A DNA stretch of 64,000 nt from Ostreococcus lucimarinus (lineage: Eukaryota), in NCBI GenBank assembly GCA_000092065.1, contig CP000590.1; one strand, given 5' to 3'. The notes below the pieces were generated by a model. The model was given only the letters and a program-made list of their open reading frames with translations. It was not told the origin of the DNA and did not search any database. This document shows positions 2,851-64,000 of this stretch, in pieces. Within the stretch, counting starts at the first letter, position 1. Every line of letters begins with the position of its first letter. The position numbers were made by a program, and so were the translations under genes.

Positions 2851-2955
2851 ACAAGTATCACCGCACGCAAGCACGCGCCGCACACGCATGTACCCAACTA
2901 TGTTGTAACGTAACTGAAGCGGCTGTATCAAATCTAAAATTACATTTTCAGTACA

Positions 2956-34181: not shown

Positions 34182-35624
34182 ACAATCACCATCACTAGCG
34201 ACATAGCCCCCGAATATCGACGTAGTCACCGCGAGTCCAATCGCGCCACCGTCTCCGCGCACATCCGCAGCGCGTCCGTCGCGCTCACCGCCGCGCCCTC
34301 CGCGCGCCGTCCTCCCATCACTCGCGTCTCGACGATCCCTCCCGCGCGATCGACGTCCCATCCCGCCCGCGCCGCGTCGTCGCTCGCCGTCGCCGCGTTC
34401 GTCGCCGTCCGCCTCCCCAGCGTCGCCGCCTCCATTCGCGCGTACGCCCGTCCCGCGCCCTCGATCGCGCGCGCCCGCGTCGCGACGAGCGCCTCCTCCG
34501 CCGCCCGCGCCGTCGCGCGCGAGCGCCACGTCGCGTCCCGCAGCGTCGTCGTCGCGCGCGCGTCGTCCGACGTCCACAGCGCGGCGATCGCCTCGCGCGT
34601 CGCGCGCGCGTCCTCGTCGTCCGCGTCGCTCGACGCGCGCTCGATCGCGAACCGCGCGAGCTCGAGGTCGTCGCGCGCGACCGCGCGCAGCGCGCGCGCG
34701 ACCGCGCCGTCGCCGTCGCCGTCGCCGTCGCGCGTCATCGTCGTAACGACCCGGCGTCGACGAGTGGCGCGCGCGACGCAGAGCGACGCGCGATGCGCGC
34801 GGTCGCGACGGCGCGCGCGACGCGTTCGCCGCGCGCGGTCGTCGCGTCGCGACGCGCGCGCGCGCGCGCGACGCGCGACGACGACGACGCGACGACGACG
34901 CGCGCGCGATTCGCGCGAACGGCGCTCGCGACGAGCGCGCTGATGACGATGGGCGCGCGCGCGGCGCGCGCGGCGAGCGCGAACGACGCCGTGCTCGCGG
35001 CGCTCGCGCGACGCGACGCGACGGCGCCGGACGGCGCGACGGCGCGGCGACTGCGCGGCGACGTCGACGAGGCGACGCGCGCGAGGACGCTCGCGCTCGC
35101 GGGGTGCGTCGCGACGCGCGACGCGACGACGCGATGACGCGCGCGACGACGCGATGACGCGAGACGCGAACGATGGGACGACGGCGACGCGCGCGGGACT
35201 GACGACGCGCGCGGGGCGACGATAGGGACGTCGACGGCGCGCGACGCGCGCTGCGAGGCGAAAATCTATCGAAACTCCGCGCCGACGCGACGACGGTGAC
35301 GAGACTCGCGAGCGAGGACGGCATGCGCGCGTCTAGGAACGGATTGACGCTCAGGGACGTGACGCTGGCGCTGGACGCGTTCGACGACGCGCTTCGAGCG
35401 GAGGGCTTGGGCGCGAAGTCGGCGTCGAGCGACGACGTGCGGCGAACGGCGGACGATTTGATTCGCACGCTCGAGCGTCTATCCGGGACGTCGGATCGAC
35501 GCGGCGGTTGATTTGTTTTGAGATTTATTCCTTTCGCGCGCGATTCGACGCCGAGCGACGCCGAGCGATTCCGAGCGATTCCGAGCGTCGTCTCGTCCCG
35601 CACACCGCCGCTCGCGAACCGACG

Positions 35625-36554
35625 ATGCTCGCGCGCGCCCCCGTCGCGCCGATCGCGCGCGCTCGACCTCCCGCGCCGCGCGCCCGCGCGCCCGTCGCTC
35701 GCGCCGCGCCGTCCGACGCGTCCGCGGTCGTCGCGTCGCGTCGCGTCGCGCTCGCGCTCCCGCTCGCGCTCGCCGCGCTCGACCGCTCGACCGCGCGCGC
35801 GGCGGACGCGCCGCGCGTCCTCGTCGTCGGCGCCACGGGCCAGACCGGCGCGCTCGTCGTCCGCGAGCTGTCGCGCGCGGGCAGGGCGCGCGCGATCGTC
35901 GCCGGCGCGCGATCGGCGGCGAAGGCGACGAAGCTCGGCTTGGACGCGCTGCCGGGGGTGGAGATTCTCGACGGCGTCGACGTCACGCGCGGCGTCGACG
36001 CGCTGGCGCTCGCGTTCGAGGGCTTCGACGTCGTCGTCGTCGCCACGGGATTCGTGCCGGGAAATCCGCTGAAGATGAACGCGGCGGCGCGCGCGGTGGA
36101 TAACGAGGGCGTGTGCGCGGTGGCGGACGCGGCGAAGCGAGCGAACGTCAAGCGCGTCGTGCTGATATCGTCCATCCTGACGAACGGACCGGGATTCGGG
36201 GCGCAGGATACCGCTGGATACAAGATCACGAACGCGTTCGGAAGGGTGCTCGAAGAAAAGCTCGTGGGGGAGAATCACCTGCGCGCGAGCGGCGTGCCGT
36301 GGACCATCGTTCGACCGGCTGGGTTGAAGACGGACGCGCCGAAAAATCCGCTCGTCGTCACCGGGGAAGACGTGATGACGAGCGGTGAGATCAGCCGCGA
36401 GCTCGTCGCGCGCGTGATGGTGGAGGCGGCGTTCGACGCGCGCGCGGAGGGTAAAGTTTACGAAATCGCGGAGAGCGGTTCCTTCGTCGGCGGCGATCCC
36501 GCGGGCGCGAAGACGTTCGCCCTCGATTCCGACCCGGCGTCGTGGTTCGCGTAA
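35625..36554 (+). CDS. NAD(P)-binding Rossmann-fold protein (NmrA-like/atypical SDR), probably plastid-targeted.
   Basis: VLVVGATGQTGALVVRELSRAG dinucleotide-binding motif. The transit-like N-terminus is MLARAPVAPIARARPPAPRARAPVA... The antisense 855-aa ORF 33990..36557 is rejected as a GC artefact. Confidence 0.7.
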   Translation: MLARAPVAPIARARPPAPRARAPVARAAPSDASAVVASRRVALALPLALAALDRSTARAADAPRVLVVGATGQTGALVVRELSRAGRARAIVAGARSAAKATKLGLDALPGVEILDGVDVTRGVDALALAFEGFDVVVVATGFVPGNPLKMNAAARAVDNEGVCAVADAAKRANVKRVVLISSILTNGPGFGAQDTAGYKITNAFGRVLEEKLVGENHLRASGVPWTIVRPAGLKTDAPKNPLVVTGEDVMTSGEISRELVARVMVEAAFDARAEGKVYEIAESGSFVGGDPAGAKTFALDSDPASWFA

Positions 36555-36629
36555 CATTTTCTATTCCGACCCGGCGTCGTGGTTCGCGTAACATTTTCTA
36601 TTCCGACCCGGCGTCGTGGTTCGCGTAAT
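36526..36629. repeat. 37-bp tandem repeat x2.8 (attccgacccggcgtcgtggttcgcgtaacattttct). The first copy encodes the last 6 codons plus the stop of the NmrA-like gene, and copies 2-3 lie in the 3' UTR.
   Basis: Seen directly: the units at 36526-36562 and 36563-36599 are identical, and the third is a partial diverged copy. Confidence 0.9.
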
Positions 36630-51478: not shown

Positions 51479-54055
51479 TCACGTCGTCGCGGCGTTTTCG
51501 TCGCCGTGGAGCCGAGCGGATGATTTGGAGTGCTTGCGCACGATGGGAGATAACGCCACGGGTTCGCCGGCGGAGATTTGGCGGAAGACTTCGGCCGTGA
51601 CGGCGTTGACGTCGACGTCGGCGCCGTGCTTTTGAATCTGCGCCAAGAGGTCTTGGAGCTGTGTCATGGACAATCCCGAGTCGGGCGATCCCGAAGACGA
51701 CGGTTCGGCAAACGGGCGCAAGAATCTGTGCGTGAGAATCTCCTTGACAGATATGCGGTTCTTCGGATCTCGCTCCAGACACTTTCGCATCAAGTCAATG
51801 AGCGCCGGATTCTCCGTCGGTAACGGTGGAAACGCGATCGTGTGCCGGGGATCGGTAATAGCGTGAAGTTTTTGAATCATCCCGGTGATTTTGCTAAACG
51901 GCGTGTGCCCGTACACCATCTGGTACAAGATGCAACCGAGACTCCAAATATCGCTCGCGCGTCCAACTTTCATCGGTCCTCCGAGTGCGGACGCTTGTCC
52001 GTTCAGGATTGCCTCAGGGGACATGTAGTTCACCGTTCCAACTTGATGATCTCGCACAATATTCGTGTGATCGGGCGCTTGCTCCGTCTGTATCGCGCGC
52101 GCGATGCCGAAATCGATGAGCTTGAGCGCGCCCTCGACAAAGAGAAAGTTTGCCGGTTTCAAATCACTGTGCACGATGCGCTCCTCGTGAATGATATTCA
52201 CCGCTTCCACCATTTGTTCAAAGTACAGACGTAAAAAGTTGTCGTCAATCACACCTCCGTGGTTTTGACGCTGCTTTTCGCGCTTGGCGAGCATGTGTGC
52301 GAGGTCGATTTCGCCAAATTCAAGCACCATAAATATGAGCTTCTCCTTCGGGCAAACCTCCGCATCGACGAGCTGAATGATGTTGTCTCTTCCTCGTAAT
52401 GTCTTCAGCAGCTTGATTTCGTCAATAAAACCCGCCACGGTTTCGTGCTCTTTGCCATCGAGACGAATTCGCTTCAACGCTAAAATCTTTCGCTTGGGAG
52501 AGACGACTTTGTAAACCTTGCACGTGCCACCTTGACCCACGCACTCGAGTTTCGTATACTTGACTCCATTCACGATGACGGTGTTATCATCCTCGCGAGG
52601 ACGGTCGTGATACTTGTTCGCGCTCGCCACGGAGCTACTCTCCACGCGCCGCTCGCCGCCTTGCAAGGGCGTTTGCTCCGCCGCTCGTTGCCTCGAAGGT
52701 GGTACTCTCGGAGGATCCATCGATGCGTGACCGCTAGCGGCCGGTGTATGCTCGGAACGTGAAGGTCGAGACGCGCTCAAAGCGCTGTACTTCTCTTTCG
52801 CCTCCGCGAGGCGGCTTCGCAACGTCACGGTGGCCTCCATCACGCTCGTCGGCGGCGGCGGGGGCATTGAATTCTCCGTCTTTTCGCCGCCACCGCGTAT
52901 ACCTCCCGTGCGGGCGCTGTGATAGCTGCTCACGCTTCCCGGCATCGCCGTTGATGACGTCACGTACGTCGTACCCGCATGGTGCGACGGCGCTACGGGC
53001 TGCGGCGCGGTAAACTTTGCCGTCGGCGTCGCTTGCATATTCGCCAAAGCCGCGGCGCGTTGCGATAAATTCTTGGGCGTCGCCACCACGGATGACTTCG
53101 CCCCAACATGCATGGCGTCCACATCCATATCCCTCGTCACGTGTCGCGGGTTCGCGGGCTTAATCGCCGACGTATACTGCGGCGCCAGCGACCGAAACGG
53201 CGTGTGTTGCGTGTGCTGCGCCGGTTCGTATCGTTTTCCCTCCATATCCGCCAGCATGCACTCGATCGCCCCCGAGGGCTCGGCGCCGAAATCTAATCCT
53301 CGCTTTAAGATTTTTACCGCTTTCTCCTCGCCCTTGAACGTGTACCCGAACGCCGCCCACTCGCACCAATAAATCGCGTGCTTGTGCCCGATGCCGCACG
53401 ACTTTAAAAACTTAAACGTATCCCTCGCGTCATCCATGTTGCTCACCATCTGCTGCCTCGCCAGCCCGAGAAATATCCTCACATAGTTTTCATCGTTCAC
53501 GTTCCCCCGCTTCGGGATCGTCTTCGTCGCGAGTTCGTACAACCGATGCAAGCTCACCCCGTTTCGACTCCCCGCGCTCGCGCTCGGTTTCCCCACCTCC
53601 GCCGTCGCCGCCGCGTCCGCGTACGTCGCCTCTTCGTGCTCCAAAAAGTTCAACCACGCCTCCGGGTTCTCTTGATTCTCTCGCACCGCGTTCGCCAGCG
53701 CGTTCCTCGCCTTTCTCCCCCGCGTCGGCGTCCCCGTCTCGTCCGCGCTCGCGCAGTACTCGTCCAGCAGCGCCGTCGCCGTCCCCGCCCGTCGCGTCCC
53801 CACCGCCGCGCTCGTCGACGCGCTCGCGCGCGCGTCCGCCTCCGCGCGAGGCGTCACCGCGCTCATCATCCGCACCCGCGCCGCGAGCGACCGCACGCGC
53901 GGTTCGTACGCCGACGACGGCGTCGTCGCGCCGTCGCCGAGCCGTTGTCCATCGCGATCGTTCTCGCCGTCTCCGCGCGCGCCGCGCGTCGCCGCGTCGC
54001 GCGATTTCCCGTCCGCGGCGCGGTGGGCGTTTTCTTTATCGCGCTCGACGTCCAT
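51479..54055 (-). CDS. MPS1: Mps1/TTK dual-specificity spindle-checkpoint kinase with an N-terminal KEN box and TPR/Mad3-BUB1-like region.
   Basis: Begins MDVERDKENAHR (KEN). TPR-like region ENPEAWLNFLEHEEA..HAIYWCEWAAFGYTFKGEEKAVKILKRGLDFGAEP. Kinase motifs VGQGGTCKVYKV, HSDLKPANFL, DFGIA, GTVNYMSPE, DIWSLGCILYQMVYG. The first 263 codons of the track ORF (overlapping the carboxypeptidase gene) are rejected. The start is at ~54054/54055. Confidence 0.85.
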   Translation of the reverse strand: MDVERDKENAHRAADGKSRDAATRGARGDGENDRDGQRLGDGATTPSSAYEPRVRSLAARVRMMSAVTPRAEADARASASTSAAVGTRRAGTATALLDEYCASADETGTPTRGRKARNALANAVRENQENPEAWLNFLEHEEATYADAAATAEVGKPSASAGSRNGVSLHRLYELATKTIPKRGNVNDENYVRIFLGLARQQMVSNMDDARDTFKFLKSCGIGHKHAIYWCEWAAFGYTFKGEEKAVKILKRGLDFGAEPSGAIECMLADMEGKRYEPAQHTQHTPFRSLAPQYTSAIKPANPRHVTRDMDVDAMHVGAKSSVVATPKNLSQRAAALANMQATPTAKFTAPQPVAPSHHAGTTYVTSSTAMPGSVSSYHSARTGGIRGGGEKTENSMPPPPPTSVMEATVTLRSRLAEAKEKYSALSASRPSRSEHTPAASGHASMDPPRVPPSRQRAAEQTPLQGGERRVESSSVASANKYHDRPREDDNTVIVNGVKYTKLECVGQGGTCKVYKVVSPKRKILALKRIRLDGKEHETVAGFIDEIKLLKTLRGRDNIIQLVDAEVCPKEKLIFMVLEFGEIDLAHMLAKREKQRQNHGGVIDDNFLRLYFEQMVEAVNIIHEERIVHSDLKPANFLFVEGALKLIDFGIARAIQTEQAPDHTNIVRDHQVGTVNYMSPEAILNGQASALGGPMKVGRASDIWSLGCILYQMVYGHTPFSKITGMIQKLHAITDPRHTIAFPPLPTENPALIDLMRKCLERDPKNRISVKEILTHRFLRPFAEPSSSGSPDSGLSMTQLQDLLAQIQKHGADVDVNAVTAEVFRQISAGEPVALSPIVRKHSKSSARLHGDENAATT

Positions 54056-54275
54056 CGCGCGCGCGCGGCGAGAGACGCGTCCGCGTCTGCCGCGACGCGC
54101 GCGGCGCGCGTTTGAATCGCCGTTCCCCTTTTTATCGCGACGCGGCGCGAACGCGCGAAGACTTAAAACGCGCGCGAGTACGAGAGACGATTCGCGTCGC
54201 GCGAAAAATCGGTGAAGGCACAACCCTAGACACCGGCGCGACATCGCGACGCGCGCGCGCGAGCGCGCGCGCGTC

Positions 54276-55691
54276 ATGGCCGCCGACGACGCGCGTCGCG
54301 CGTACGCGTCGAACGATGACTTGCGCGACGCCATGCGGCGGCTGAGCGCGAGCGATGGCGCGTGCGCGGGGATATCGCGCGTGGTGTCGCTGGGACGGAG
54401 CGCGAACGGCGAGGACGTGCGCGCGCTGACGATCGGTCGAGGCGCGCGCGCGAGCGACGGCGACGACGGCCGGGGAGGGCTTCGGTTTGGATTCATCGGG
54501 AACATGCACGGAGACGAGCCCGTGGGGCGAGAGATCGCGATGGAGGTGGGGCGATGGGTGTGCGAACGCGCGACGACGACGCGCGAGACGACGAGCGAGG
54601 CGGAGACGCGCGAGCGGGCGCTGGCGAAACGATTGGTGAACGAGGCGACGCTGTTCGTGGTGCCGACGGTGAATCCCGATGGGTTCGCGGCGAAAACGCG
54701 CGGGAACGCGCGTGGGGTGGATTTGAATAGAAACTTTCCGTACACGCGATTTTCGCTGCCGAAATCGTTGAGCGGACGGGCGAGCGCCGTGGGCGGGAGC
54801 GCGGGGGACAACGCGAAGCGAGAGATCGAGACGGCGCTCATCATGCGATGGAGCGAAAAGTGGGCGATGAATGGGGCGCTGAATTATCACGAAGGCGCGT
54901 TGGTGGCGAACTACCCGTGGGACGGGAACGACGACGGAAGCACGTCGTACAGCGCGGCGCCGGACGACGCGACTTTTAGATATCTCGCGTCATCGTACGC
55001 TCAAGCGCATCCCACGATGAGTAAGAGCGCGGAGTTTGAGGGTGGAATCACTAACGGCGCGGCGTGGTACCCGTTGTGGGGCGGGATGCAAGATTGGCAC
55101 TACGTGCAGACGGGGACGTACAGCTTGACGGTGGAGGTGGACGACGAGAAATGGCCGAGCGAGGACAAGCTCGGAGCGATCGTCGACGAGCACGTGAACG
55201 CCAGCATAGACGTGTGCGCCCGCGCGCTCTTCGGCTCCGTGCGCGGCTTCGTGCGCGATGAGAGGGGCGCGGCCGTCGTCGGCGCTTCCATCGTCGTCGG
55301 CCGCGACAGCGCGCCGGTGAAAACCGACGCTCGAGGCTTCTTCGCCAAGCCCAGCGAGCCGTCCACTCGACCCGTTCGCGTCGTCATCACGCCTCCATCG
55401 AACAAGCGCAACGTCGACACCATCACCCACTTCGTCCCCACCATCGATCCAACCGACGGCGCGTCGATCGACGTCGTCTTCACTCCCAGAAGCGCCCCTC
55501 CCGGCTTTCTCCTGCTTCGCGTCGTCGCCGTCGTCGTCTTCGCCGTCGTCGCCTTTCTCATCCGGCGCAGCGCCCGACGCCGCAGGCGCGTGTCGGTGCT
55601 TTCAGAGTCATTAGTAAATAACGTCGACGTCGAGAAGGCGATCGCGAACCGACGCGGGATGACATCCAGCCGTTCGTTGTCCGGCCTCTGA
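54276..55691 (+). CDS. M14 zinc carboxypeptidase (N/E, CPD-like subfamily) with a C-terminal TM anchor.
   Basis: HGDEPVGREI (Zn ligands), NPDGF, DLNRNFP, YHEGALVANYPWD, a transthyretin-like domain after the catalytic domain, and hydrophobic LLLRVVAVVVFAVVAFLI near the C-terminus. Confidence 0.8.
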   Translation: MAADDARRAYASNDDLRDAMRRLSASDGACAGISRVVSLGRSANGEDVRALTIGRGARASDGDDGRGGLRFGFIGNMHGDEPVGREIAMEVGRWVCERATTTRETTSEAETRERALAKRLVNEATLFVVPTVNPDGFAAKTRGNARGVDLNRNFPYTRFSLPKSLSGRASAVGGSAGDNAKREIETALIMRWSEKWAMNGALNYHEGALVANYPWDGNDDGSTSYSAAPDDATFRYLASSYAQAHPTMSKSAEFEGGITNGAAWYPLWGGMQDWHYVQTGTYSLTVEVDDEKWPSEDKLGAIVDEHVNASIDVCARALFGSVRGFVRDERGAAVVGASIVVGRDSAPVKTDARGFFAKPSEPSTRPVRVVITPPSNKRNVDTITHFVPTIDPTDGASIDVVFTPRSAPPGFLLLRVVAVVVFAVVAFLIRRSARRRRRVSVLSESLVNNVDVEKAIANRRGMTSSRSLSGL

Positions 55692-55948
55692 CCGACTGTA
55701 CCTTGTAACAGCAGCACCGTGGTAGCAGACAACACCCACGCCCCGCGCACGATGAACCGCACACGCGCGCGCGCGCACGTCAGATTGACGCACGAACGCG
55801 CGCGAACGCGCGAAGAAATCGCGTGCGCGTGTTTACCGCGCGAAGCCGCGCCCGCGACGCGCCCGCGACGCACGCGCGACGCGAACACGCGAACGCGCGA
55901 CGGTGAACACCCTCGGCGTCGCGCGATCGATCGCGCGTGGTGACGGCG

Positions 55949-58900
55949 ATGGCGAGCGAACCGGCGCGCGCGAAGTTCAAATCCCTGCGAGGATGGAACG
56001 TCGATAAGTACCAGTTCGATGTGCGCGCGCAGAGCGCGTACAACGTCCTGCCGGGGACGCAACGTTTGAAATTGCTGTGGAGGCGCGGACACAAGCGCGC
56101 GGAGACGAAGACGGCGAACGTGACGCGCGGGGAAGCGGTGTGGGATGAAACGCTGACGCTGTCGTGCTCGATGTTTGTGAATCCGAAGACTGGGATGTAC
56201 GAGAGCAAGCCGGCGATGTTCGTGCTGCAGACGGTGAACGAGGACGGGTCGATTGGGAAGACGTACGCGGAGGCGACGATTGATCTGTTGGAGTTTGCGT
56301 TGAATCCGGGACGGGAACTGTCGCAGACGGTGCCGATGAGACAAGGAGCGGTGTCGATGTTGACACATTTACAGTTCGCCGTCACGGCGACGCCGTTGGC
56401 GGAAAACGTGGCGTTGAGCGACGTGTCGAGCGCGCTGAGCGTCGCCGATCTAGCCGACGTCGCCGAGTTGGCAGCGACGAGCGCGGTGCCGGAAAAGTTG
56501 GCGGTGAACGTGATCGGGGAGCACGAAGATGAGGGATATTTCGATGAGAAACTCGATGTCAGAGAGGATGCGCAATCGGAAAGTGAAAAAGAGGATAGCG
56601 AATTTGCCTACTTTGACGAACGCCTGGCGTACAAGGTGGAGGGCGACGACACGGAACAACTTCCGCCGCCGACTGCGGAGGAACTATTATCGGGCGTTGA
56701 CGCTGAAGAAGGCATCGTACCCGGTGTGAAGATGATGCGCTTGATTGTCGGGAAAAAGTGCAAAATTTTCGTGCGGGGTCAGGATAACTTTGGCAACGCA
56801 CGCACGACAGGCGGGGACAACGTCGAGGGCGTGTTGATCGGTCCGAGCGGGCAGCGCGGGTTAGTGAGCACTAAAGACCACGGCGATGGCTCGTACTTGC
56901 TAGAGTTTACGTGCATGCAACAAGGGATTTGGACCCTTCGTACGCGGTTTAACGGTAGACTGAGCGTGGAGCGACACAAGCTCGTGGTTTCCTTCGGTCC
57001 GCTCACGGCCCAGGACGTTCGGGTGCAGTTACCGAAGCCGCCGTTCAGATGCGGTGCGTACACGGACATGCAAGTCGTTGTTGAGCATCCGGAAGATGGG
57101 AGAATTCTAACTGGTGCAGAGGCGTTTAACGTTCGCCTCGTCTCACCGGCGGGCTTGTCGTTGGGCGTTCCGCTCGACATTCGTCCCGGGACGACCGCCG
57201 CCGTCGCGCGAATCAACTGGCCCGAAGTTGGCGAGCATCAGCTTGACGTAAGACTAGATGGTGAATCGCTTCGCGGGTCGCCCATGCGAGTCGAAGTTGT
57301 GCCTGAGGATTTGTGCCTAGCCGCTTGTCAACTTCAAGGTCCGGGTGTTCATCGATGCACGGCGGGCATACGCTCCGCGTTTGTCATCGAAGCTCACGAC
57401 AGTCGTGGTAATCGTCTCCTTTCTGGAGGCGCGCCACTCTTTTTGGGCATTCGCACGGCATCGAATGAGTCGTACTCGGGTGAGATTGTTGATTTCGGCA
57501 ACGGCACGTACGAAGCTTCGTACTCTGTTCGTGTTTCTGGTTATTACGAATTATCGCTCGCCATCTTAGGTGAGGAACTCGTAATTAAAGGCTTATGTGA
57601 ACCCGGCAAGGCCGTCGTCGCGGGTTGTGAGCTGGTCGGCGACGCCGGATTGGACCTTGAAGTTGGCTCTTCCGGTCGCTACAGTATCATTCGTCACGAT
57701 GCATACGGCAACAGAGTGCCAACGCGTCAGGGACAAATCAAGTTCAAAGTTACCGCCGATGGACCTGGACCCGCAACTTGTACGATGATTGATAGAGCTG
57801 ATGGCGTTAGTGATGTCGATGTCAGTACCTCTGTAGCCGGGAGGTATTTCGTCCAGGTGACGGCTGGTGATCAAGAACCGATTCCTGGTTCGCCGTTTGA
57901 AGTCATCGCATATCCTAGTCCTGCTTCGCACGAAACGAGTGTGACGACAGTGTTCGGTGCACAGTTAGCCGCAAGTGATAGCGATGTCCTCGTGGCTGTT
58001 GCTGGCGAAGAGGTCTCGTTATCAGTAGCACCTCGTGATATGTACGGCAACGTCACTGTCTTCTCCAAGTCGGCGGCGATCACTGCGACAGCGACGGGAG
58101 GTGGCGTCTCGACTTCCTTTGAAGAACGCACTGGAACTCGCACGGAAGTTTCTTTGTTCTCGACTTTCAGACTAGCTGGGTCGTACTTGCTCACCGCAAA
58201 AATCGGCGACAAGGTGTTAGACGGCTACCCAAGGATTCTCACGGTTGTTTCGGCGGCCACTGAACCTCGAAAGTGCATGTTGTTTGGTGACGCGCTTCAA
58301 GGCGTGAGGTGTAACCGAGTTTCAACACTCACCGTGCACGCAGCAGATAAATTTGGAAACTTGAGATCGACGGGTGGCGACGTTGTCGATGTCAACTTGT
58401 GCTCACCCGACGGAAAGTACGTCGTTGCTTCAAAGGTTGATGACCACGCCGACGGAACGTACGGCGCAAAATTCAAGCTCGAGCGCCCGGGGACGTGGGA
58501 AATCCAACTCGTCGTCAATGGCCGCGGTGGCCGGACGCAAGTCAATGAGATTACTTCGTATTTTGCAGGCGTCAAAGCGAACGAGTGTACGTTTTCTGGC
58601 ATGGGTTCGGATGGTGTTGAAGGCGTCGTATGCTTTAAGCAGAGTGACATCGTCATCGAGCCAGCTGACTTTGAGCAAAACTCACGCCTCATGAGCGGGA
58701 AAGAAGCCGTCGCAGTCCGTATTCTCACGCCATCTGGAGGTATTAGCTCTGTGGATCTCAAGTTCGAAAATGGAAAATATAGAGGATCGTACACCTGGAC
58801 TCAGCCAGGTCAGCACACCGTGTCCGTGTCTCTTGATCAAGAAGCCATCGTGGGGTCGCCGTTTTCCGTTGAGGCCATGAGTGCGTTGCCTCAAATTGCC

Positions 58901-61900
58901 GAACTGGAGAACATGGCCGTCGGGGAGATTGCCGATATCCTTCCAAAGCTCAGTGGCGAAGGTGCATCGCAAGCGTTGCAGTCTCTTGGACCCGATAAAG
59001 CGGCCGAAGCGTTGGCGGGCAACACGCCCGAGTCAGCGGTGCGAATGATGGCGCATGTGTTCCCTGGAAATGTTGCGGAAATTCTTAGTTGCATGCGTCC
59101 TGACGCAGCCGCAGCGACAATCTCTGCGATGCCCGGCGAGCGAGCCGCTGAGGTTCTCAGCACAATGCAATCAAACGACGCGACGCAGCTGATGAAGAAT
59201 ATGTCGAGTGGGGAGATATCTGAAAAGGCTGAAATGTTCGCCGACGTCATTTGTGGCATGAAGGAAGACGATATGCTTGTGTGCGTTCGCGAGCTCATGA
59301 ATTCGCGAACCGCGGAGAAAGGTTTAAAGTCAGTGCTAGATAAAATGCCCGCGCGCGTCGTAGCTGAACTCACTGGTAAGCTGGATAAGGGTGAGAACAC
59401 CAGGCTTCTTTCCGGGCTTTCGCATGAGCGCACAGCCGCCATTGTCTCTAAACTGCCAGTTGAGCTGCAAGCCGGTGTCATTGGCCTGCTCGGCGGAGAT
59501 TCCATGTTCCAGATGACGAAGACCTTGTATGCTGCGTATAAAGTGGACAAGAATTCGTCCGCACAAGAGCGCAGTCGAATGAAGGCGGATGCCCAGGACA
59601 CGGGTCACCGGCTGGCCCCAGCTCTCGCTAGCATGGACACGGAGGAGCTCCGCGACAATTTCAAGCAAGCAACGCCCGAGCATATCGGTGGCTGCCTCTT
59701 TGCACTCATCGACGCAAAGCGCCGTCAGGTTGGCTCTAAAGCTATCGCTCGTCCCGTGGCACAGATGATGGAAGACGGCTCGATCGAATGGGGGGATGGT
59801 TCCATTTCTCACGTGAACGAAGACAGATCGGCAATCAATCATTCCGACGGAACTTCGGCATCCCTTCGTGTAGATGGTACTATCATCGATAGCGATGGAC
59901 AAGTGCTCAAACTTAGACCTGATGGGATCATCACGGCCGATGGTACTGTCCTAGGGGCCGACGGAGAAATCACCACCGCTCCGTCCGGTCCGTTGCACAT
60001 GTTCAGGGCACTGACGACGGAGCAGCAAACAGCGGCGATTCTTGAGCTCATCGAATTCAGTCAAACGGGTAACGCCGGCGAGATCTTGGTCGATCTCACC
60101 GCGACGGAGCTTCGCGAGACAATCCGCCCCATGGGTGCTAGCGACCAGGCGAAAGTCTTCATAGAAATCGGGCGAATGTCGCCCTCGCAAGCAGCTCGCG
60201 CTGCTTCAGTTCTCAGCCACACCGAAGCTGCATCAGTGGTGAGCATCATGGTGAATCCCGGTTCAAGCGGGCGATGCGACGAGCCATTCATGGGCCCGTT
60301 CCTCGAGGCGCTGGCGCCGCAGATTTTGCGTAACATCGAACCACCAACAGCTGTTGGCGGCGCGCTGGCAACGCATCTTTCCCCGACGGCAGCTGCTCAC
60401 GTTTTGCACAAGCTCGAGCCGATGGATGTGTCGCGTATCATCGAAGGAATGAGTCCAGCAGAAGTGCGCCAAGTCATCGAATCGAGTTCGAATATTCAGG
60501 CCGAAGCCGGTAAGGCTGTGAGCGATACTCCGCTCATCGCCGCGCTCGTGCCTTACGTGTCCGCCATGGATGACTCGCAAGCGGCGACGCTCTTGGAAGG
60601 TCTTCCTGCGGACATGGCTGTTGGCGTCATGATGTGCACGCCTGAAGAACGGGCTAAAGAGATTATGTCGCACACGCGAAGACGAGACTTGAAGGAGCGC
60701 ATAGCGAACAAATCCTTGATTCACCTCGACGCGTGTACTATCGTCAACCTTCGTGGGGCAGTAGCAGGGGAATCCTCTTCCTTCATTTTAGAAGCGAGAG
60801 AGCGCGGTGGAAACAGGATTACTTTTGGAGGCGGACGGTTGACAGTCGCCACGAAGCTGTTCTCCGCGCCTGGTCCTGGCGTTGAGCAAGGGACTGTCCA
60901 TGACCGCGGTAATGGTGAATACGTCGTACAGTTCACGAGCACCTTGGCCGGTAAGATCGCCGTCGTTGTCGAGGCTTCCGGACAATCTCGTGCCTGGGAC
61001 GTAAACATCGAGGCATCCGACGTCGTTATTCCAAAGTGTACGATCGAAAAGCAAGGATTGGAGAGTTGGACGGCCGGTAGTCCTGGTAGAATACTGCTTA
61101 CTTTGCGCGATCGCTTCGGGAATTTCGCTCATTCGTCGAAAAGTATCCTCGAGTTCGAAGCTCGCGCATCAGGACCTGGAGGCGTCATCGTCGAGCGCAA
61201 CATGTTGGATGACGGGAAAATTGAATTTCTCCTGAACACGACTGTCACTGGCATTTACAAAGTCGCCGTATCGTGCTTGGATACGAAAGAAGATTTGAGC
61301 GGCTGTCCCTTTGAAGCACGTATGGGGACCGACGCTCTCTCCCAAGCGGGCTGTACCGCCTCATTGCAATCTCTCACGAGTTCGACAAAGGGCCCGGGGG
61401 CGAAAGCCGCCGCCTATGGCGCCTGCGCCGCCATGGCGGGTGAAGAAGTCACCTGCGTTGTGGAGGCTCGCGATCGGTACGGCAATACGACTACTTTTGC
61501 AGGCGAACACGTGGCCGTCATTGCGTTCGGACCGGCGCACTTGCCCGCGGATAGACCGTTTGAAGTGGCCGACGTTCGCAGTGGCCGGATGGCGCTTCGA
61601 GCCATCTTCCCACGATCGGGGAGCTACACGATCGCTGTAACTGTTGACGGCATCCCGATCGCTACGTCTCCGCTCATCTTGCACGTTTTTCCGGGTGCGT
61701 GCGAAACGAGTCGTGCGGTCTTACGTGGTGACGCGCTCAATGGCATCGTCGCGAGTAAGATTACAAGTCTTCTTGTGCAAACAGAGGACAAGTACGGGAA
61801 CCATTGCCACGTGGGTGGCGACAGGGTGAATCTCTCCATGTCAGGACCGAACGGCATCAAAGTAAATTCTTTGGACGTCAAAGACAACGAAGACGGAACG

Positions 61901-64000
61901 TATTCTTTCTCATTCATCATTCCACAATCTGGTCGATGGACGATTCAAGCCGTCGTGAACGGTCGCATTGCAAAAGAGAGCACCACTGAAGTTGTCGTCA
62001 CATACGGCCCATTACACGCCGCCGCGTGCGTGTTGAAAGGAGGTCCTGGAATGAAACGTACGGAAGTTTGCGGTGCGCAGCGCGATATTTACTTGCAAGC
62101 TCTCGAATATGACGCAAACGGGCGCGGGATGAGCGGGCAAGAAGCTATCACAATGCACTTGATTACGCCAAGTGGTGCGACGCACACACTCGCCCCCGTT
62201 TTTGCCGAACGAGGCTCTCGCTACAAGGCCACGGTACGATGGTGGGAGGTTGGAAGACACGAGGTTGTCGCCGCAGTCGGGGGACAACCAGTTGTAGGTT
62301 CTCCATTCGTAGTGAACGTTGAAGCGCAGGAAGTGAGTCTGCCGATGTGTCGACTCTCGGGACCTGGCCTTCAGGGTGCTGTCGCGGGAGAGCGAGCCAC
62401 GATCCTCATCGAGTCAAGAGACGAACGCGGTAACCGACTCTTCAATGGCGGTGCACAAATGGGCATTGCCGTGCGATCGGGCGGTGAAACTCTTCGTGGC
62501 AAGGTGCAAGATTGCGGGGACGGTACGTATGAGGCGAGTTACATTGTCGAGCGTGCCGGACCGTTCGAGTTGTCACTGTTCCTCGGCACGGAGGCGGCTA
62601 CGTACAGGGCGACATGTAAGCCAGGACGCGTAGATTACGCCAAGTGCCGCGTTGATGGGGTGAATAATGGCGTATGGGTTGCTGGCGAGCAACTCACTCT
62701 CACAGTCACGCGCATGGATCGTTTTGGTAACAGAATCACCCGTCGCGAAGGGCTGGCGCCTTTCTTCGGCAAGGCGATTGGACCTGGAGATATCGTAAGC
62801 CAGTCGTTAGAACTCGGTAACGGAACGGCGGAAATCAAGTTGTACGGCACAGTTGCTGGAAACTATCAAATCGGTGTCTACGTTGCCGACACTCCCATTG
62901 TGCCTTACGCGAATGAGGAAGCCGAAGCTCTTATGGAGAACCAACAGCTCCTCCTCGAAGACTCAAAATCCGCTAAGTCCAAAGCAGATAGCAAAAGGAT
63001 TGAAGCGCAAGAGTCTGGTCTTCGAACAGATTCTCTCGCGGGTACCGTGCGTTCGGCGTCAAAGAGTGATATCAACGCTGGCAAGCCATTGGCCGCGGTT
63101 CCAGGAACCTTCATCGCCTCTGAAGACATTGAAGCGATGAAGGAAGTAACGCTGCCAAAGGTGACGACAATGAATGGCGTCGAAATGGTTCCGTTACCGA
63201 ATGGTTTGTTCGAGATGAACTTGATACCGACGATTGCGATGCCGAATTGCTGTGAGTTAGAAGTCATTGGTGGCACGCGCGCCGATGATTCATGGATCAC
63301 CCCAGCGGGTGACGAAGTGATTGTCAGAGTCATAGCCCGAGACAGATACAAGAATGAAACGCACTGGGAGGAGGGTCAAACGATCACCGTCGAGGCACTC
63401 GGTCCAGAGTTTCTGAGTTTCTCCTCGCACGGAACGACGAGCTTACAGAACGAGTTCGTCGCGAAGATGATTCGCGCGGGCACGTTTGAGCTTCGAGTGC
63501 TTTGTGACGCCCTTCCAGTCTGCTGGAGGGCAATGCAAGTCATCGCTGGCTTCACTTTCGCGCCGCGATCGATTTTGAGTATGGATGGGTTGAAGGACGT
63601 CAAAACTGGTAACATCGTTCGATTGACACTTCGAACAGTCGATAGGTATGCCAACCTCCGTCTTAGTGGTGGAGATACGGTGCAGCTAGCGCTCCAAGGT
63701 CCGAACGGCGCATTCGCTCGCCAAGTGAGCGTGACGGATCATCAAGATGGTACTTACGCGCTTGAATTCCAAGTCACTGCCGCAGGCAGGTGGATTATGA
63801 GTACGCGCATCAATAGTGTTCTTCACGTCGAGGGCGGAATTTCTTTTGTCGTTGCGTTCGGTACACTGACGGCAGAGGAGGCGGTGGTTTCTTTCGATCC
63901 TCCTTTGCCTAAAAACGGATCTGTTGAATGCGGTCGCACAAGCGATCTGATGCTGCATGGCGCCGGTTGGGAGACGAACAATCGCGTCATGACCGGTTTG
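55949..64000 (+). CDS. Giant multidomain protein, 5' part only. The ORF stays open to the window end (>2,680 codons) with no stop before position 64000. It has an N-terminal NT-C2 domain, ~8 filamin-type Ig repeats, a central ~600-aa all-helical module with MgtE_N/FliG-like repeats, and at least 10 further filamin repeats.
   Basis: I translated the frame codon by codon from ATG ~55949 to 64000 and found no stop. NT-C2: KFKSLRGWNVDKYQFDV..LKLLWRRGHKRAETK..AVWDETLTL..LQFAVTATP. Filamin repeats show the recurrent GDN/GGD..G.Y...F....G.W.......G..V..SPF.V signature (e.g. LRGSPMRVEV, IPGSPFEVIA, IVGSPFSVEA, VVGSPFVVNV). The central module has periodic M.PD.AA..L..M..E.AAEVL motifs. It is absent from the ORF track because there is no stop in the window. 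Confidence 0.75.
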   Translation, partial: MASEPARAKFKSLRGWNVDKYQFDVRAQSAYNVLPGTQRLKLLWRRGHKRAETKTANVTRGEAVWDETLTLSCSMFVNPKTGMYESKPAMFVLQTVNEDGSIGKTYAEATIDLLEFALNPGRELSQTVPMRQGAVSMLTHLQFAVTATPLAENVALSDVSSALSVADLADVAELAATSAVPEKLAVNVIGEHEDEGYFDEKLDVREDAQSESEKEDSEFAYFDERLAYKVEGDDTEQLPPPTAEELLSGVDAEEGIVPGVKMMRLIVGKKCKIFVRGQDNFGNARTTGGDNVEGVLIGPSGQRGLVSTKDHGDGSYLLEFTCMQQGIWTLRTRFNGRLSVERHKLVVSFGPLTAQDVRVQLPKPPFRCGAYTDMQVVVEHPEDGRILTGAEAFNVRLVSPAGLSLGVPLDIRPGTTAAVARINWPEVGEHQLDVRLDGESLRGSPMRVEVVPEDLCLAACQLQGPGVHRCTAGIRSAFVIEAHDSRGNRLLSGGAPLFLGIRTASNESYSGEIVDFGNGTYEASYSVRVSGYYELSLAILGEELVIKGLCEPGKAVVAGCELVGDAGLDLEVGSSGRYSIIRHDAYGNRVPTRQGQIKFKVTADGPGPATCTMIDRADGVSDVDVSTSVAGRYFVQVTAGDQEPIPGSPFEVIAYPSPASHETSVTTVFGAQLAASDSDVLVAVAGEEVSLSVAPRDMYGNVTVFSKSAAITATATGGGVSTSFEERTGTRTEVSLFSTFRLAGSYLLTAKIGDKVLDGYPRILTVVSAATEPRKCMLFGDALQGVRCNRVSTLTVHAADKFGNLRSTGGDVVDVNLCSPDGKYVVASKVDDHADGTYGAKFKLERPGTWEIQLVVNGRGGRTQVNEITSYFAGVKANECTFSGMGSDGVEGVVCFKQSDIVIEPADFEQNSRLMSGKEAVAVRILTPSGGISSVDLKFENGKYRGSYTWTQPGQHTVSVSLDQEAIVGSPFSVEAMSALPQIAELENMAVGEIADILPKLSGEGASQALQSLGPDKAAEALAGNTPESAVRMMAHVFPGNVAEILSCMRPDAAAATISAMPGERAAEVLSTMQSNDATQLMKNMSSGEISEKAEMFADVICGMKEDDMLVCVRELMNSRTAEKGLKSVLDKMPARVVAELTGKLDKGENTRLLSGLSHERTAAIVSKLPVELQAGVIGLLGGDSMFQMTKTLYAAYKVDKNSSAQERSRMKADAQDTGHRLAPALASMDTEELRDNFKQATPEHIGGCLFALIDAKRRQVGSKAIARPVAQMMEDGSIEWGDGSISHVNEDRSAINHSDGTSASLRVDGTIIDSDGQVLKLRPDGIITADGTVLGADGEITTAPSGPLHMFRALTTEQQTAAILELIEFSQTGNAGEILVDLTATELRETIRPMGASDQAKVFIEIGRMSPSQAARAASVLSHTEAASVVSIMVNPGSSGRCDEPFMGPFLEALAPQILRNIEPPTAVGGALATHLSPTAAAHVLHKLEPMDVSRIIEGMSPAEVRQVIESSSNIQAEAGKAVSDTPLIAALVPYVSAMDDSQAATLLEGLPADMAVGVMMCTPEERAKEIMSHTRRRDLKERIANKSLIHLDACTIVNLRGAVAGESSSFILEARERGGNRITFGGGRLTVATKLFSAPGPGVEQGTVHDRGNGEYVVQFTSTLAGKIAVVVEASGQSRAWDVNIEASDVVIPKCTIEKQGLESWTAGSPGRILLTLRDRFGNFAHSSKSILEFEARASGPGGVIVERNMLDDGKIEFLLNTTVTGIYKVAVSCLDTKEDLSGCPFEARMGTDALSQAGCTASLQSLTSSTKGPGAKAAAYGACAAMAGEEVTCVVEARDRYGNTTTFAGEHVAVIAFGPAHLPADRPFEVADVRSGRMALRAIFPRSGSYTIAVTVDGIPIATSPLILHVFPGACETSRAVLRGDALNGIVASKITSLLVQTEDKYGNHCHVGGDRVNLSMSGPNGIKVNSLDVKDNEDGTYSFSFIIPQSGRWTIQAVVNGRIAKESTTEVVVTYGPLHAAACVLKGGPGMKRTEVCGAQRDIYLQALEYDANGRGMSGQEAITMHLITPSGATHTLAPVFAERGSRYKATVRWWEVGRHEVVAAVGGQPVVGSPFVVNVEAQEVSLPMCRLSGPGLQGAVAGERATILIESRDERGNRLFNGGAQMGIAVRSGGETLRGKVQDCGDGTYEASYIVERAGPFELSLFLGTEAATYRATCKPGRVDYAKCRVDGVNNGVWVAGEQLTLTVTRMDRFGNRITRREGLAPFFGKAIGPGDIVSQSLELGNGTAEIKLYGTVAGNYQIGVYVADTPIVPYANEEAEALMENQQLLLEDSKSAKSKADSKRIEAQESGLRTDSLAGTVRSASKSDINAGKPLAAVPGTFIASEDIEAMKEVTLPKVTTMNGVEMVPLPNGLFEMNLIPTIAMPNCCELEVIGGTRADDSWITPAGDEVIVRVIARDRYKNETHWEEGQTITVEALGPEFLSFSSHGTTSLQNEFVAKMIRAGTFELRVLCDALPVCWRAMQVIAGFTFAPRSILSMDGLKDVKTGNIVRLTLRTVDRYANLRLSGGDTVQLALQGPNGAFARQVSVTDHQDGTYALEFQVTAAGRWIMSTRINSVLHVEGGISFVVAFGTLTAEEAVVSFDPPLPKNGSVECGRTSDLMLHGAGWETNNRVMTGL

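What the first reader, a model, noticed from the sequence alone, without database searches (positions are those of the whole stretch)
55949..64000. Giant NT-C2 / filamin-repeat / MgtE_N-like / filamin-repeat protein, absent from the ORF track
A continuous >8-kb open reading frame (>2,680 codons, still open at the window edge) combines three modules that I do not know as a described architecture. The first is an NT-C2 membrane-targeting domain (EHBP1/EEIG1/PMI1 type). The second is two long arrays of filamin/ABP280-type Ig repeats with the classical ..GSPF.V.. strand. The third is a central ~600-aa helical region (about 58.86-60.72 kb) built from MgtE-N/FliG-like helical repeats (AMPGERAAEVLSTMQSNDATQLMKNM..; TPESAVRMMAHVFPGNVAEILSCMRPDAAAATISAM). 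NT-C2 proteins are usually small adaptors. A filamin rod interrupted by an MgtE_N-like module suggests a novel cytoskeleton-membrane linker, possibly flagellar or scale-associated in an alga. The ORF track misses it entirely because the stop lies outside the window.
Basis: partly seen in the sequence, partly recalled or inferred. Interest (0 to 1): 0.7.

Follow-up and report, generated by a model that had tools for sequence, protein, structure and literature searches.

The report
Giant membrane-anchored Ig-rod protein of Ostreococcus
The window holds the first half of one 15.4-kb intronless gene from the tiny marine green alga Ostreococcus; it encodes a conserved but uncharacterised 545-kDa protein with a lipid-binding C2 head, 30 filamin-type Ig domains in six groups of five, and two bacterial-type (MgtE/FliG-like) helical modules, most likely a long membrane-anchored scaffold.

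Summary
Window 55949-64000 (+) is an uninterrupted 2,684-codon frame. Metagenome contigs identical to the window show it is the first 52% of one 5,144-aa (545 kDa) gene with a real stop.

All three domain calls hold:
- NT-C2: Pfam 64 bits, and the predicted fold matches C2 domains.
- Filamin repeats: Pfam E = 1e-108.

The organism is an Ostreococcus species, which has no flagella or scales, so the flagellar or scale idea is not supported.

New findings:
- The full protein has 30 Ig repeats in a strict five-repeat super-repeat (six pentads).
- Both helical modules sit at the same B|C junction, in pentads 2 and 5.
- Bathycoccus (47% identity) keeps all 30 repeats one-to-one with the same insertion points.
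- dN/dS is about 0.06-0.09 along the whole gene.
- There is no CH actin-binding domain, transmembrane segment or signal peptide.

Most likely it is a fixed-length, phosphoinositide-anchored cytoplasmic scaffold or tether, with the solenoids acting as docking or oligomerisation hubs. The architecture is shown; the function is inferred. I found no paper describing this architecture.

The parts
55949..64000 (+). First 2,684 codons (52%) of a single 5,144-codon intronless gene. The remainder (2,460 codons plus stop) lies beyond the window end and was recovered from identical metagenome contigs (L009 1454-16888).
   Evidence: No stops. ATG preceded by an in-frame TGA at 55904. Identical in L001-L004 and in L009, L010, L013, L014. 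dN/dS is 0.06-0.09 overall.
55994..56365 (+). NT-C2 domain (aa 16-139), a C2 beta-sandwich. It is the only net-basic region of the protein (+5).
   Evidence: Pfam PF10358, 64.2 bits against a cut-off of 25.2. AF2 pLDDT above 90 for residues 17-154. Foldseek top hits are all C2 domains, target TM 0.7-0.8. 26 invariant columns across lineages. Charge.
56366..56731 (+). Conserved post-C2 segment (ATPLAENVALSDVSS..SVADLADV) followed by a disordered acidic linker (net -24). The linker carries two acidic-aromatic motifs, HEDEGYFDEKL (56522-56554) and EFAYFDERLAY (56600-56632).
   Evidence: Alignments. AF2 pLDDT below 50 for residues 161-260. The first motif is conserved in 6 of 6 and the second in 5 of 6 Ostreococcus-type sequences.
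56732..58822 (+). Filamin-type Ig repeats 1-7 (pentad 1 = A-B-C-D-E, then A-B of pentad 2).
   Evidence: Pfam Filamin. Own-HMM repeat map. Super-repeat analysis.
58823..60745 (+). Helical module H1 (aa 959-1599), inserted between repeat 7 (type B) and repeat 8 (type C). Sub-parts: solenoid H1a 58895-59452; two long helices; beta 'DG-repeat' meander 59759-59977; solenoid H1c 59987-60718.
60746..62872 (+). Filamin-type Ig repeats 8-14 (C-D-E of pentad 2; A-B-C-D of pentad 3). This is the most constrained block.
   Evidence: dN/dS 0.023-0.047.
62873..63295 (+). 141-aa charged, partly conserved insert between repeat 14 (D) and repeat 15 (E). It is present at the same place in Bathycoccus.
63296..64000 (+). 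Filamin-type Ig repeats 15, 16 and the start of 17, cut by the window end.

Best explanation
SHOWN
- This is one intronless 15,435-nt gene of an Ostreococcus species. It encodes a 5,144-aa, 545-kDa, acidic (pI 5.0) protein with no signal peptide and no transmembrane helix.
- Its layout is: NT-C2 (a C2 beta-sandwich); a conserved segment plus an acidic disordered linker; 7 filamin-type Ig domains; helical module H1; 15 Ig domains, with a 141-aa insert after the 14th; an acidic linker plus helical module H2 (about 880 aa together); 8 Ig domains; and a 159-aa tail with a conserved helix.
- The 30 Ig domains form six pentads (A-B-C-D-E).
- H1 and H2 are related to each other. They are built from 12-residue one-helix units of the MgtE-N/FliG (ARM-like) type. 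Both are inserted at the B|C junction, in pentads 2 and 5.
- The whole layout is kept domain-for-domain in Bathycoccus and is under strong purifying selection.

INFERRED (mechanism)
- The NT-C2 head docks the protein on a phosphoinositide-rich membrane, as shown experimentally for EHBP-1 and plant PMI1.
- The Ig arrays form a long semi-flexible rod. My estimate is on the order of 100-150 nm, a sizeable fraction of a cell about 1 um across. Its position-specific domains each offer a distinct binding face.
- The two alpha-solenoid modules act as docking or self-association hubs, the way ARM-like MgtE_N/FliG/FlgY domains stack or dimerise. They may respond to cations.
- The protein would thus be a fixed-length, membrane-anchored scaffold or tether that organises the cortex or positions organelles in these minimal cells. 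It would not be an actin cross-linker of the filamin type.
For: Single gene:
- Uninterrupted frame in the window and in 12 assemblies of four sequence tiers, each with a stop.
- dN/dS 0.06-0.09 overall, and below 0.25 even in the linkers.

Domains:
- Pfam.
- C2 fold: AF2 plus Foldseek.
- 12-residue periodicity, z up to 9.0.
- H1 and H2 related, E = 9e-14.

Pentads:
- Mean normalised score 0.205, 0.229 and 0.245 at offsets 5, 10 and 15, against about 0.08 at all other offsets.
- Every repeat's best partners are of the same type.

Ancient fixed layout:
- In Bathycoccus, 29 of 30 repeats best match the same-numbered repeat, with identical insertion points.
- A third, GC-rich lineage is colinear over more than 3,800 aa.

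Cytosolic and peripheral:
- No window of 19 residues looks like a real TM helix, and NT-C2 is the only basic region.

Function of the parts, from papers:
- The NT-C2 domains of EHBP-1 and PMI1 bind PI(4,5)P2 and PI4P (PMC4894640; 10.64898/2025.12.30.697064).
- The MgtE_N domain of FlgY is an ARM-like dimerising and ring-forming module (10.1101/2025.02.19.638559).
Against: - There is no experimental datum on localisation, partners, expression or lipid binding for this protein.
- No cytoskeleton-binding domain was found, so the far end of the 'tether' has no identified target.
- The net positive charge of NT-C2 is modest (+5), and lipid binding was not tested.
- The length estimate assumes extended Ig arrays, but Ig domains could pack into compact pairs as in filamin A repeats 16-21.
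- The helical modules are the least conserved folded parts between genera (33-35% identity). That fits a spacer role as well as a hub role.
- The named genome annotations of Ostreococcus and Micromonas were not visible in the searches, so an existing annotation or name cannot be excluded.
Confidence: 0.5

Rival explanations
1. A genuine filamin-like actin cross-linker. The Ig rod would dimerise through the C-terminal helix and bind F-actin through an unrecognised site, linking cortical actin to the membrane through NT-C2.
For: - Filamin-type repeats are the dominant module.
- A conserved C-terminal helix could dimerise the protein.
- An O. tauri preprint interprets another filamin-repeat protein (MORN-Filamin-Invasin_D3, ostta09g01910) as a cytoskeleton-to-membrane anchor.
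- EHBP-1 bridges actin and membranes (PMC4894640).
Against: - No CH domain or any other actin-binding Pfam family was found in 5,144 aa.
- The tandem-CH actin-binding domain is the defining feature of filamins.
Confidence: 0.15
2. A molecular ruler or template. The five-domain super-repeat would match the spacing of a periodic partner (a filament, a lattice or the protein's own polymer), as titin and nebulin super-repeats do. The protein would then set a dimension of the cell or of an organelle contact.
For: - Strict pentad periodicity.
- Domain-for-domain conservation, with no repeat gain or loss, between Ostreococcus and Bathycoccus.
- Total length nearly invariant (5,118-5,156 aa) across the Ostreococcus tiers.
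Against: - No candidate periodic partner is known.
- A super-repeat can simply record duplication history. The 15-repeat offset scores highest, which suggests a block duplication.
- Titin and nebulin are analogies from my own knowledge, not tested relationships.
Confidence: 0.2
3. A cation-responsive element. The acidic MgtE_N-type solenoids would bind Mg2+ or Ca2+, as the MgtE N-domain does, and switch the rod's conformation or its membrane association.
For: - H1 is strongly acidic (net -30).
- The PMI1 NT-C2 binds Ca2+, and Ca2+ modulates its lipid preference.
Against: - No CBS pair and no MgtE membrane domain are present.
- The Mg2+-ligand residues of MgtE were not mapped.
Confidence: 0.1
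4. A flagellar or scale-associated structural protein.
For: - FliG and MgtE_N families are associated with bacterial flagella.
- Foldseek lists ARM proteins of the sperm central apparatus among the generic solenoid hits.
Against: - The window is from Ostreococcus.
- By my own knowledge Ostreococcus is naked and non-flagellate, and Bathycoccus is non-flagellate. PMC1939878 mentions neither flagella nor scales for O. tauri.
- The identical architecture occurs in Bathycoccus.
- Bacterial and eukaryotic flagella are unrelated structures.
- The Foldseek hits have TM-scores of only 0.13-0.27.
Confidence: 0.03
5. A secreted or surface adhesin of the invasin/Big type, or an assembly or annotation artefact that joins several genes.
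For: - Overlapping weaker Pfam hits to Invasin_D3, Big_1 and Ig_GEX2_N.
- The Bathycoccus annotation splits the gene into 4,034-aa and 1,249-aa models.
Against: - No signal peptide or TM segment, and the N-terminus is a cytosolic-type C2 domain.
- Filamin scores far higher than the other Ig families (356 bits against 149 or fewer).
- The open frame is continuous in 12 independent assemblies.
- The Bathycoccus split is a frameshift inside a continuing helical repeat.
Confidence: 0.02

Closest known systems
Filamins (FLNa/b/c, Dictyostelium ABP-120 gelation factor)
   Same: The same Pfam Ig-type repeat (PF00630) in long tandem arrays that form a rod, interrupted by non-Ig segments.
   Different: It has no N-terminal tandem-CH actin-binding domain. 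The N-terminus is NT-C2 instead. It has 30 repeats in strict pentads. The arrays are interrupted by 640-880-aa alpha-solenoids, not by short hinges. It is about twice the size of vertebrate filamin.
NT-C2 adaptors: EHBP1/EHBP-1, EEIG1, plant PMI1 and RPG
   Same: An N-terminal NT-C2 domain followed by disordered acidic regions. In EHBP-1 and PMI1 this domain binds PI(4,5)P2 and PI4P and places the protein on membranes (PMC4894640; 10.64898/2025.12.30.697064).
   Different: Those proteins are about 0.4-1.2 kaa (my own knowledge) and continue with CH/bMERB domains or coiled coils. None is reported with filamin or MgtE_N modules. Lipid binding has not been tested here.
MgtE N-domain, FliG and FlgY ARM-like domains (bacterial)
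   Different: Here the units form long arrays (two solenoids in H1, a module of about 760 aa in H2) inside a eukaryotic cytosolic giant protein. There are no CBS or membrane domains (MgtE) and no FliG three-domain architecture.
Other eukaryotic MgtE_N-array proteins (Chloropicon primus QDZ23986.1, PAN_4 + 7 MgtE_N; environmental PAN + MgtE_N proteins; Tubulanus polymorphus LOC141899915; Ordospora colligata OCOL_000222)
   Same: Large eukaryotic proteins with multiple MgtE_N units. They are the best non-orthologous matches to H1.
   Different: None has NT-C2 or filamin repeats. All are uncharacterised.
O. tauri MORN-Filamin-Invasin_D3 protein (ostta09g01910)
   Same: The same genus and the same logic of a membrane-binding module plus a filamin-type rod. 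A 2026 preprint interprets it as a cytoskeleton-to-membrane anchor.
   Different: It is a different gene and uses a different membrane module (MORN, not NT-C2). No MgtE_N modules are reported. I did not analyse its sequence.
Titin and nebulin super-repeat scaffolds (analogy only, my own knowledge)
   Same: A giant modular protein whose domains are arranged in a higher-order super-repeat, with position-specific conservation of individual domains.
   Different: Unrelated domain types and lineage. No periodic partner is known here.

Membership tests
NT-C2 (PF10358; EEIG1/EHBP1/PMI1 type) | Sequence match to the family profile above the curated threshold | tested here: met
   64.2 bits against a cut-off of 25.2, E = 1.3e-17, profile positions 2-128 of 143. 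The Bathycoccus orthologue scores 56.2 bits.
NT-C2 (PF10358; EEIG1/EHBP1/PMI1 type) | Located at the extreme N-terminus of the protein | tested here: met
   aa 16-139 of 5,144. The start codon is fixed by the upstream stop and by the orthologues.
NT-C2 (PF10358; EEIG1/EHBP1/PMI1 type) | C2 beta-sandwich fold | tested here: met
   AF2 pLDDT above 90 for residues 17-154. Foldseek top 50 hits are essentially all C2 domains, target TM 0.7-0.8, probability 1.00.
NT-C2 (PF10358; EEIG1/EHBP1/PMI1 type) | Binds phosphoinositide or anionic membranes | not testable with these tools
   Only indirect support: it is the sole net-basic region (+5) of an acidic protein.
Filamin family proper (actin cross-linkers) | Tandem filamin/ABP280 Ig repeats | tested here: met
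   PF00630 E = 1.4e-108 in the window part. 30 repeats in the full protein.
Filamin family proper (actin cross-linkers) | N-terminal actin-binding domain made of two CH domains | tested here: not met
   No CH-domain hit at E <= 1 in aa 1-2684 or at E <= 1e-3 in aa 2601-5144. The N-terminus is NT-C2.
Filamin family proper (actin cross-linkers) | Dimerisation through the last Ig repeat | not testable with these tools
   After the last repeat comes a 159-aa tail with a conserved helix. Its oligomeric state is unknown.
MgtE Mg2+ transporter | MgtE_N domain | tested here: met
MgtE Mg2+ transporter | CBS pair and C-terminal MgtE transmembrane domain | tested here: not met
   No CBS or MgtE hits. No convincing TM helix.
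FliG (flagellar rotor protein) | FliG_N + FliG_M + FliG_C three-domain architecture above the family thresholds | tested here: not met
   FliG_M scores 33 bits, overlapping a stronger MgtE_N hit. FliG_N scores 17 bits, below its cut-off. There is no FliG_C hit. The resemblance is at the level of the shared ARM-like unit.
Super-repeat giant scaffolds (titin/nebulin-like organisation) | Higher-order periodicity of domain types along the chain | tested here: met
   Scores at offsets 5, 10 and 15 are 0.21-0.25, against about 0.08 at other offsets. Conserved one-to-one in Bathycoccus.
Super-repeat giant scaffolds (titin/nebulin-like organisation) | Super-repeat matches the spacing of a periodic binding partner | not testable with these tools
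   No partner is known.

The most novel reading that the evidence does not exclude
The protein is a fixed-length molecular ruler or tether specific to the Mamiellales picoalgae. Its C2 head sits on one membrane. Six Ig pentads present a repeating set of five distinct binding faces. Two MgtE/FliG-type solenoids, a module class otherwise known from bacterial transporters and flagellar rotors, polymerise or dock it. Together these set cortical geometry or organelle-to-membrane spacing in the smallest free-living eukaryotes. This would also establish 12-residue MgtE_N arrays as a genuine eukaryotic scaffold module.
Probability: 0.2. Interest if true: 0.75.

Novelty: new variant of a known kind. 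Interest (0 to 1): 0.55.

Why it matters
Ostreococcus and its relatives are the smallest free-living eukaryotes and major marine primary producers. How they position one chloroplast, one mitochondrion and one Golgi, and how they divide, is largely unknown. The whole-cell tomography paper says the mechanisms that establish the division plane or segregate organelles remain unclear (PMC1939878).

This gene takes up 15.4 kb. By my own estimate of a genome of about 13 Mb, that is about 0.1% of a streamlined genome, spent on one intronless gene. The gene is kept domain-for-domain across genera under strong purifying selection, so it is a strong candidate for a core structural organiser of these cells.

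O. tauri is genetically tractable (my own knowledge), so the idea can be tested directly. The finding also shows that MgtE_N/FliG-type helical units, normally regarded as bacterial, are used as large scaffold modules in eukaryotes. It also adds a non-muscle example of an Ig-domain super-repeat.

Tried and rejected
1. Frameshift, intron or several genes: rejected. The frame is open and identical in independent assemblies, and intact in four divergent tiers.
2. The whole-protein homology search was swamped by filamin repeats and gave only Bathycoccus and a lizard filamin-B. I therefore searched the central module and the N-terminus separately.
3. P0012 (7,269 aa, E = 2.5e-23) looked like a giant relative. 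It is a bacterial-type protein with simple AMKPEDAGKV repeats, so I rejected it as a repeat-driven match. The match to the Bartonella adhesin P0027 is likewise spurious.
4. Sequence search of the PDB with NT-C2 and with H1 found nothing usable.
6. The original NT-C2 paper (Zhang & Aravind 2010) is not held in the library under the PMC id I recalled. I could not check whether it lists this architecture.
I used database fragments instead.
8. Named Ostreococcus or Micromonas orthologues never appeared in the protein searches, so their public annotation could not be inspected. The clade of the window's species and the genus of the third lineage (L006, GC 0.657) remain unassigned.
9. The acidic YFDE motifs could be FFAT-like. 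I noted this but did not score them, and they are not obvious in Bathycoccus.
10. A third Pfam piece was first submitted out of frame and corrected.
Full report
**1. The observation**

Translating window 55949-64000 (+) gives 2,684 codons with no stop. The frame opens after a TGA at 55904, and the first ATG is at 55949. The ORF lister omits this ORF because it runs off the window.

Pfam on the translation gives:
- Filamin: E = 1.4e-108, 13 stretches.
- MgtE_N: E = 2.9e-27, 4 stretches.
- NT-C2: E = 1.3e-17, aa 16-139.
- Weaker, overlapping Ig families (Invasin_D3, Ig_GEX2_N, Big_1) and FliG_M.

**2. One gene, and only half of it**

The neighbouring M14 peptidase (window 54276-55691) occurs on marine metagenome contigs where the giant gene was called as a 5,144-aa product. 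Those contigs match the window with 0-7 mismatches in 8,052 nt and use the same ATG.

A metagenome scan with the end of one contig returned 25 loci. In L009, L010, L013 and L014 the gene is a single open frame of 5,144 codons ending in a stop. Its first 2,684 residues are identical or nearly identical to the window (2,681-2,684 of 2,684). More divergent tiers of about 98%, 89% and 80% identity keep intact frames of 5,118-5,156 codons.

Pairwise dN/dS is 0.060 against the ~89% tier and 0.088 against the ~80% tier, with dS saturated near 2.2. The Ig blocks give 0.02-0.10 and the linkers 0.15-0.24. A hidden frameshift, an intron or a chain of separate genes is therefore excluded.

**3. Organism**

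The window carries ordinary green-algal nuclear genes: an ABCG transporter, a PX/Vps5 sorting nexin, LepA/GUF1, DDX23 and others. Its LepA is 99% identical to environmental sequences, 79% to Ostreococcus tauri and 62% to Micromonas pusilla. The window is therefore from an Ostreococcus species other than O. tauri.

By my own knowledge Ostreococcus is naked and non-flagellate, and Bathycoccus is scaled but non-flagellate. The O. tauri whole-cell tomography paper mentions neither flagella nor scales (PMC1939878). This removes the 'flagellar or scale-associated' suggestion.

**4. Full architecture**

Pfam on the C-terminal half adds more filamin repeats and a second, stronger MgtE_N region (E = 5e-50), and nothing else. 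A repeat HMM built from the protein itself finds 30 Ig repeats. The layout is:

| Residues | Feature |
|---|---|
| 16-139 | NT-C2 |
| 140-261 | Conserved segment plus acidic linker |
| 262-958 | Ig repeats 1-7 |
| 959-1599 | H1 |
| 1600-2308 | Ig repeats 8-14 |
| 2309-2449 | Insert |
| 2450-3269 | Ig repeats 15-22 |
| 3270-4148 | Acidic linker plus H2 |
| 4149-4985 | Ig repeats 23-30 |
| 4986-5144 | Tail |

The protein is 545 kDa with pI 5.0. It has no convincing TM segment, and NT-C2 is the only net-basic region. No CH domain was found anywhere.

**5. Pentad super-repeat**

I compared all 30 repeats with each other. The mean normalised scores are 0.205, 0.229 and 0.245 at offsets 5, 10 and 15, against 0.075-0.085 at every other offset. 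Each repeat's best partners are of its own type.

The rod is therefore six pentads, A-B-C-D-E. H1 lies between repeat 7 (type B) and repeat 8 (type C). H2 lies between repeat 22 (B) and repeat 23 (C). That is the same junction, in pentads 2 and 5. Offset 15 scores highest, which suggests an ancestral duplication of a three-pentad block that already carried a helical module. H1 and H2 are detectably related (E = 9e-14).

**6. Conservation of the layout**

The only named relative is a Bathycoccus prasinos 'unnamed protein product' of 4,034 aa. It lies in conserved synteny (PhoD, BUB1-like kinase, M14 peptidase, giant gene) and is followed directly by a 1,249-aa MgtE_N/filamin gene model. At the annotated stop, the helical repeat simply continues in another frame.

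Joining the two models gives 5,307 aa with exactly 30 repeats. Of these, 29 best match the same-numbered Ostreococcus repeat, and the exception matches the same type. H1, the insert and H2 are at the same positions. Overall identity is 47%: 45-59% in the Ig blocks and 33-35% in the helical modules.

A third lineage (L006/L007) has GC 0.657, which is Micromonas-like but unverified. It shows the same synteny and is colinear with the window protein: 48% identity over 2,488 aa in a single frame, with further matches reaching about aa 3,830 across frame changes.

There has thus been no repeat turnover since these genera diverged. Each domain position is individually maintained.

**7. The modules at structural level**

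- NT-C2: AF2 gives a confident all-beta domain (residues 17-154, pLDDT above 90) followed by disorder. Foldseek's best PDB hits are all lipid-binding C2 domains, including cPLA2, dysferlin and otoferlin C2A, E-Syt1 C2A and CEP120, with target TM 0.7-0.8.
- H1: AF2 gives mean pLDDT 81 and pTM 0.62. The model has a solenoid of about 17 short helices, two long helices, a low-confidence beta meander over the 'DG-repeat' segment, and a second solenoid.
- Pfam MgtE_N signal is confined to the two solenoids.
- H1a, H1c and H2 show 12-residue periodicity, with z = 6.6, 4.8 and 9.0.

**8. How rare it is**

An exhaustive search of 1.84 billion representatives with H1 found 70 proteins at E <= 1e-3. These fall into three groups:
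- Fragments of orthologues.
- A handful of other large eukaryotic MgtE_N-array proteins: Chloropicon primus PAN + MgtE_N, environmental PAN + MgtE_N proteins, a nemertean protein and a microsporidian protein.
- Bacterial MgtE- and MotE-type proteins.

None of the non-orthologues scanned with Pfam has NT-C2 or filamin domains. The N-terminal search found only unnamed environmental orthologues.

Literature searches for the combination found nothing. The nearest item is a different O. tauri gene, a MORN-Filamin-Invasin_D3 protein.

**9. Mechanism (inferred)**

- NT-C2 domains of EHBP-1 and PMI1 bind PI(4,5)P2 and PI4P and place those proteins on membranes. For PMI1, the functional unit extends beyond the C2 core and needs flanking disordered regions (PMC4894640; 10.64898/2025.12.30.697064). 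Here a conserved post-C2 segment and an acidic disordered linker follow the C2 domain.
- Filamin-type Ig arrays form rods and bind partner peptides (my own knowledge).
- MgtE_N/FliG/FlgY ARM-like domains stack, dimerise or form rings (10.1101/2025.02.19.638559).

The best-supported reading is a fixed-length, phosphoinositide-anchored cytoplasmic scaffold or tether whose solenoids are docking or oligomerisation hubs. Rivals are a true actin cross-linker (no actin-binding domain found), a ruler matched to a periodic partner, a cation-responsive switch, and the refuted flagellar, surface and artefact readings.

**10. Verdict**

The protein belongs to the NT-C2 domain family at sequence and fold level. 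It carries filamin-type and MgtE_N-type modules. It is not a filamin, because it lacks the CH actin-binding domain, and it is not an MgtE or a FliG.

I rate it a new variant of a known kind: a giant modular Ig-rod scaffold with a membrane-targeting head. Three features are unreported in the literature I could search: the NT-C2/filamin/MgtE_N combination, the strict pentad organisation, and the equivalent insertion of bacterial-type solenoids. Function remains untested, and the public annotation of named Ostreococcus genomes could not be inspected.

Noticed in passing
L005 22280-22480 (Bathycoccus prasinos OZ116914.1): The annotated stop of the 4,034-aa Bathycoccus protein is a frameshift inside a continuing MgtE_N-type repeat ('...AAHAIG | NMTPKDAADIVSAL...'). 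The next gene model (1,249 aa) is the tail of the same gene, which is about 5,300 aa when joined. The + strand also changes frame near 18.6-18.9 kb and near 21.6 kb.
   Followed up: partly
window 56522-56554 and 56600-56632: Two acidic-aromatic motifs lie in the linker after NT-C2: HEDEGYFDEKL and EFAYFDERLAY. The first is conserved in 6 of 6 and the second in 5 of 6 Ostreococcus-type sequences. A 'DD.EF.D' motif sits at the extreme C-terminus. They look FFAT-like, but I did not score them, and they are not evident in Bathycoccus.
   Followed up: partly
window 59759-59977: A 'DG-repeat' segment (DGTIIDSDGQVLKLRPDGIITADGTVLGADGEITT) inside H1 is predicted as a beta-hairpin meander at low confidence. 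It is conserved in the Ostreococcus tiers and in the 63-64% fragments but is absent (a gap) in Bathycoccus, and it has no Pfam family.
   Followed up: partly
P0014, P0016, P0025, P0056, P0047, P0029, P0040: There is a scattered class of large, uncharacterised eukaryotic proteins built from arrays of 5-11 MgtE_N units. Several combine them with a PAN_4 domain (Chloropicon primus and marine environmental sequences) and one with a PDZ domain. Others come from a nemertean and a microsporidian.
   Followed up: partly
window 55949-64000 compared with the other genes of the window: The giant gene has the lowest third-position GC of the window genes examined (GC3 0.593, against 0.64-0.82). Its overall GC is 0.555, while the flanking DNA is 0.63-0.67.
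   Followed up: no
window 51479-55691; L001-L008: The gene order PhoD, BUB1-like kinase, M14 carboxypeptidase, giant gene is conserved in the Ostreococcus-type contigs and in Bathycoccus. The GC-rich third lineage keeps the kinase, M14 peptidase and giant gene in that order, but no PhoD gene lies within its locus.
   Followed up: partly
P0117-P0119 (alignment A3, columns ~58-125); L006 10001-10924: The NT-C2 region of the called proteins P0117-P0119 (P0119 is from the GC-rich L006 lineage) carries an insertion of about 60 residues of low complexity in the middle of the C2 domain. The Ostreococcus and Bathycoccus sequences in the alignment lack it. It is probably an unspliced intron read through by the gene caller.
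   Followed up: no
window 34001-36000: This is a very GC-rich stretch (74.7%) with long overlapping ORFs on both strands (33990-36557 on the - strand, 855 aa; 35508-36554 on the + strand, 348 aa). I did not examine it.
   Followed up: no
window 55692-55948: The 257-nt intergenic region upstream of the giant gene is made largely of CGCG-rich, near-repetitive sequence (…cgcgcgcgcgcacg…, gcgcgaacgcgcg repeated). I did not analyse it for promoter elements.
   Followed up: no
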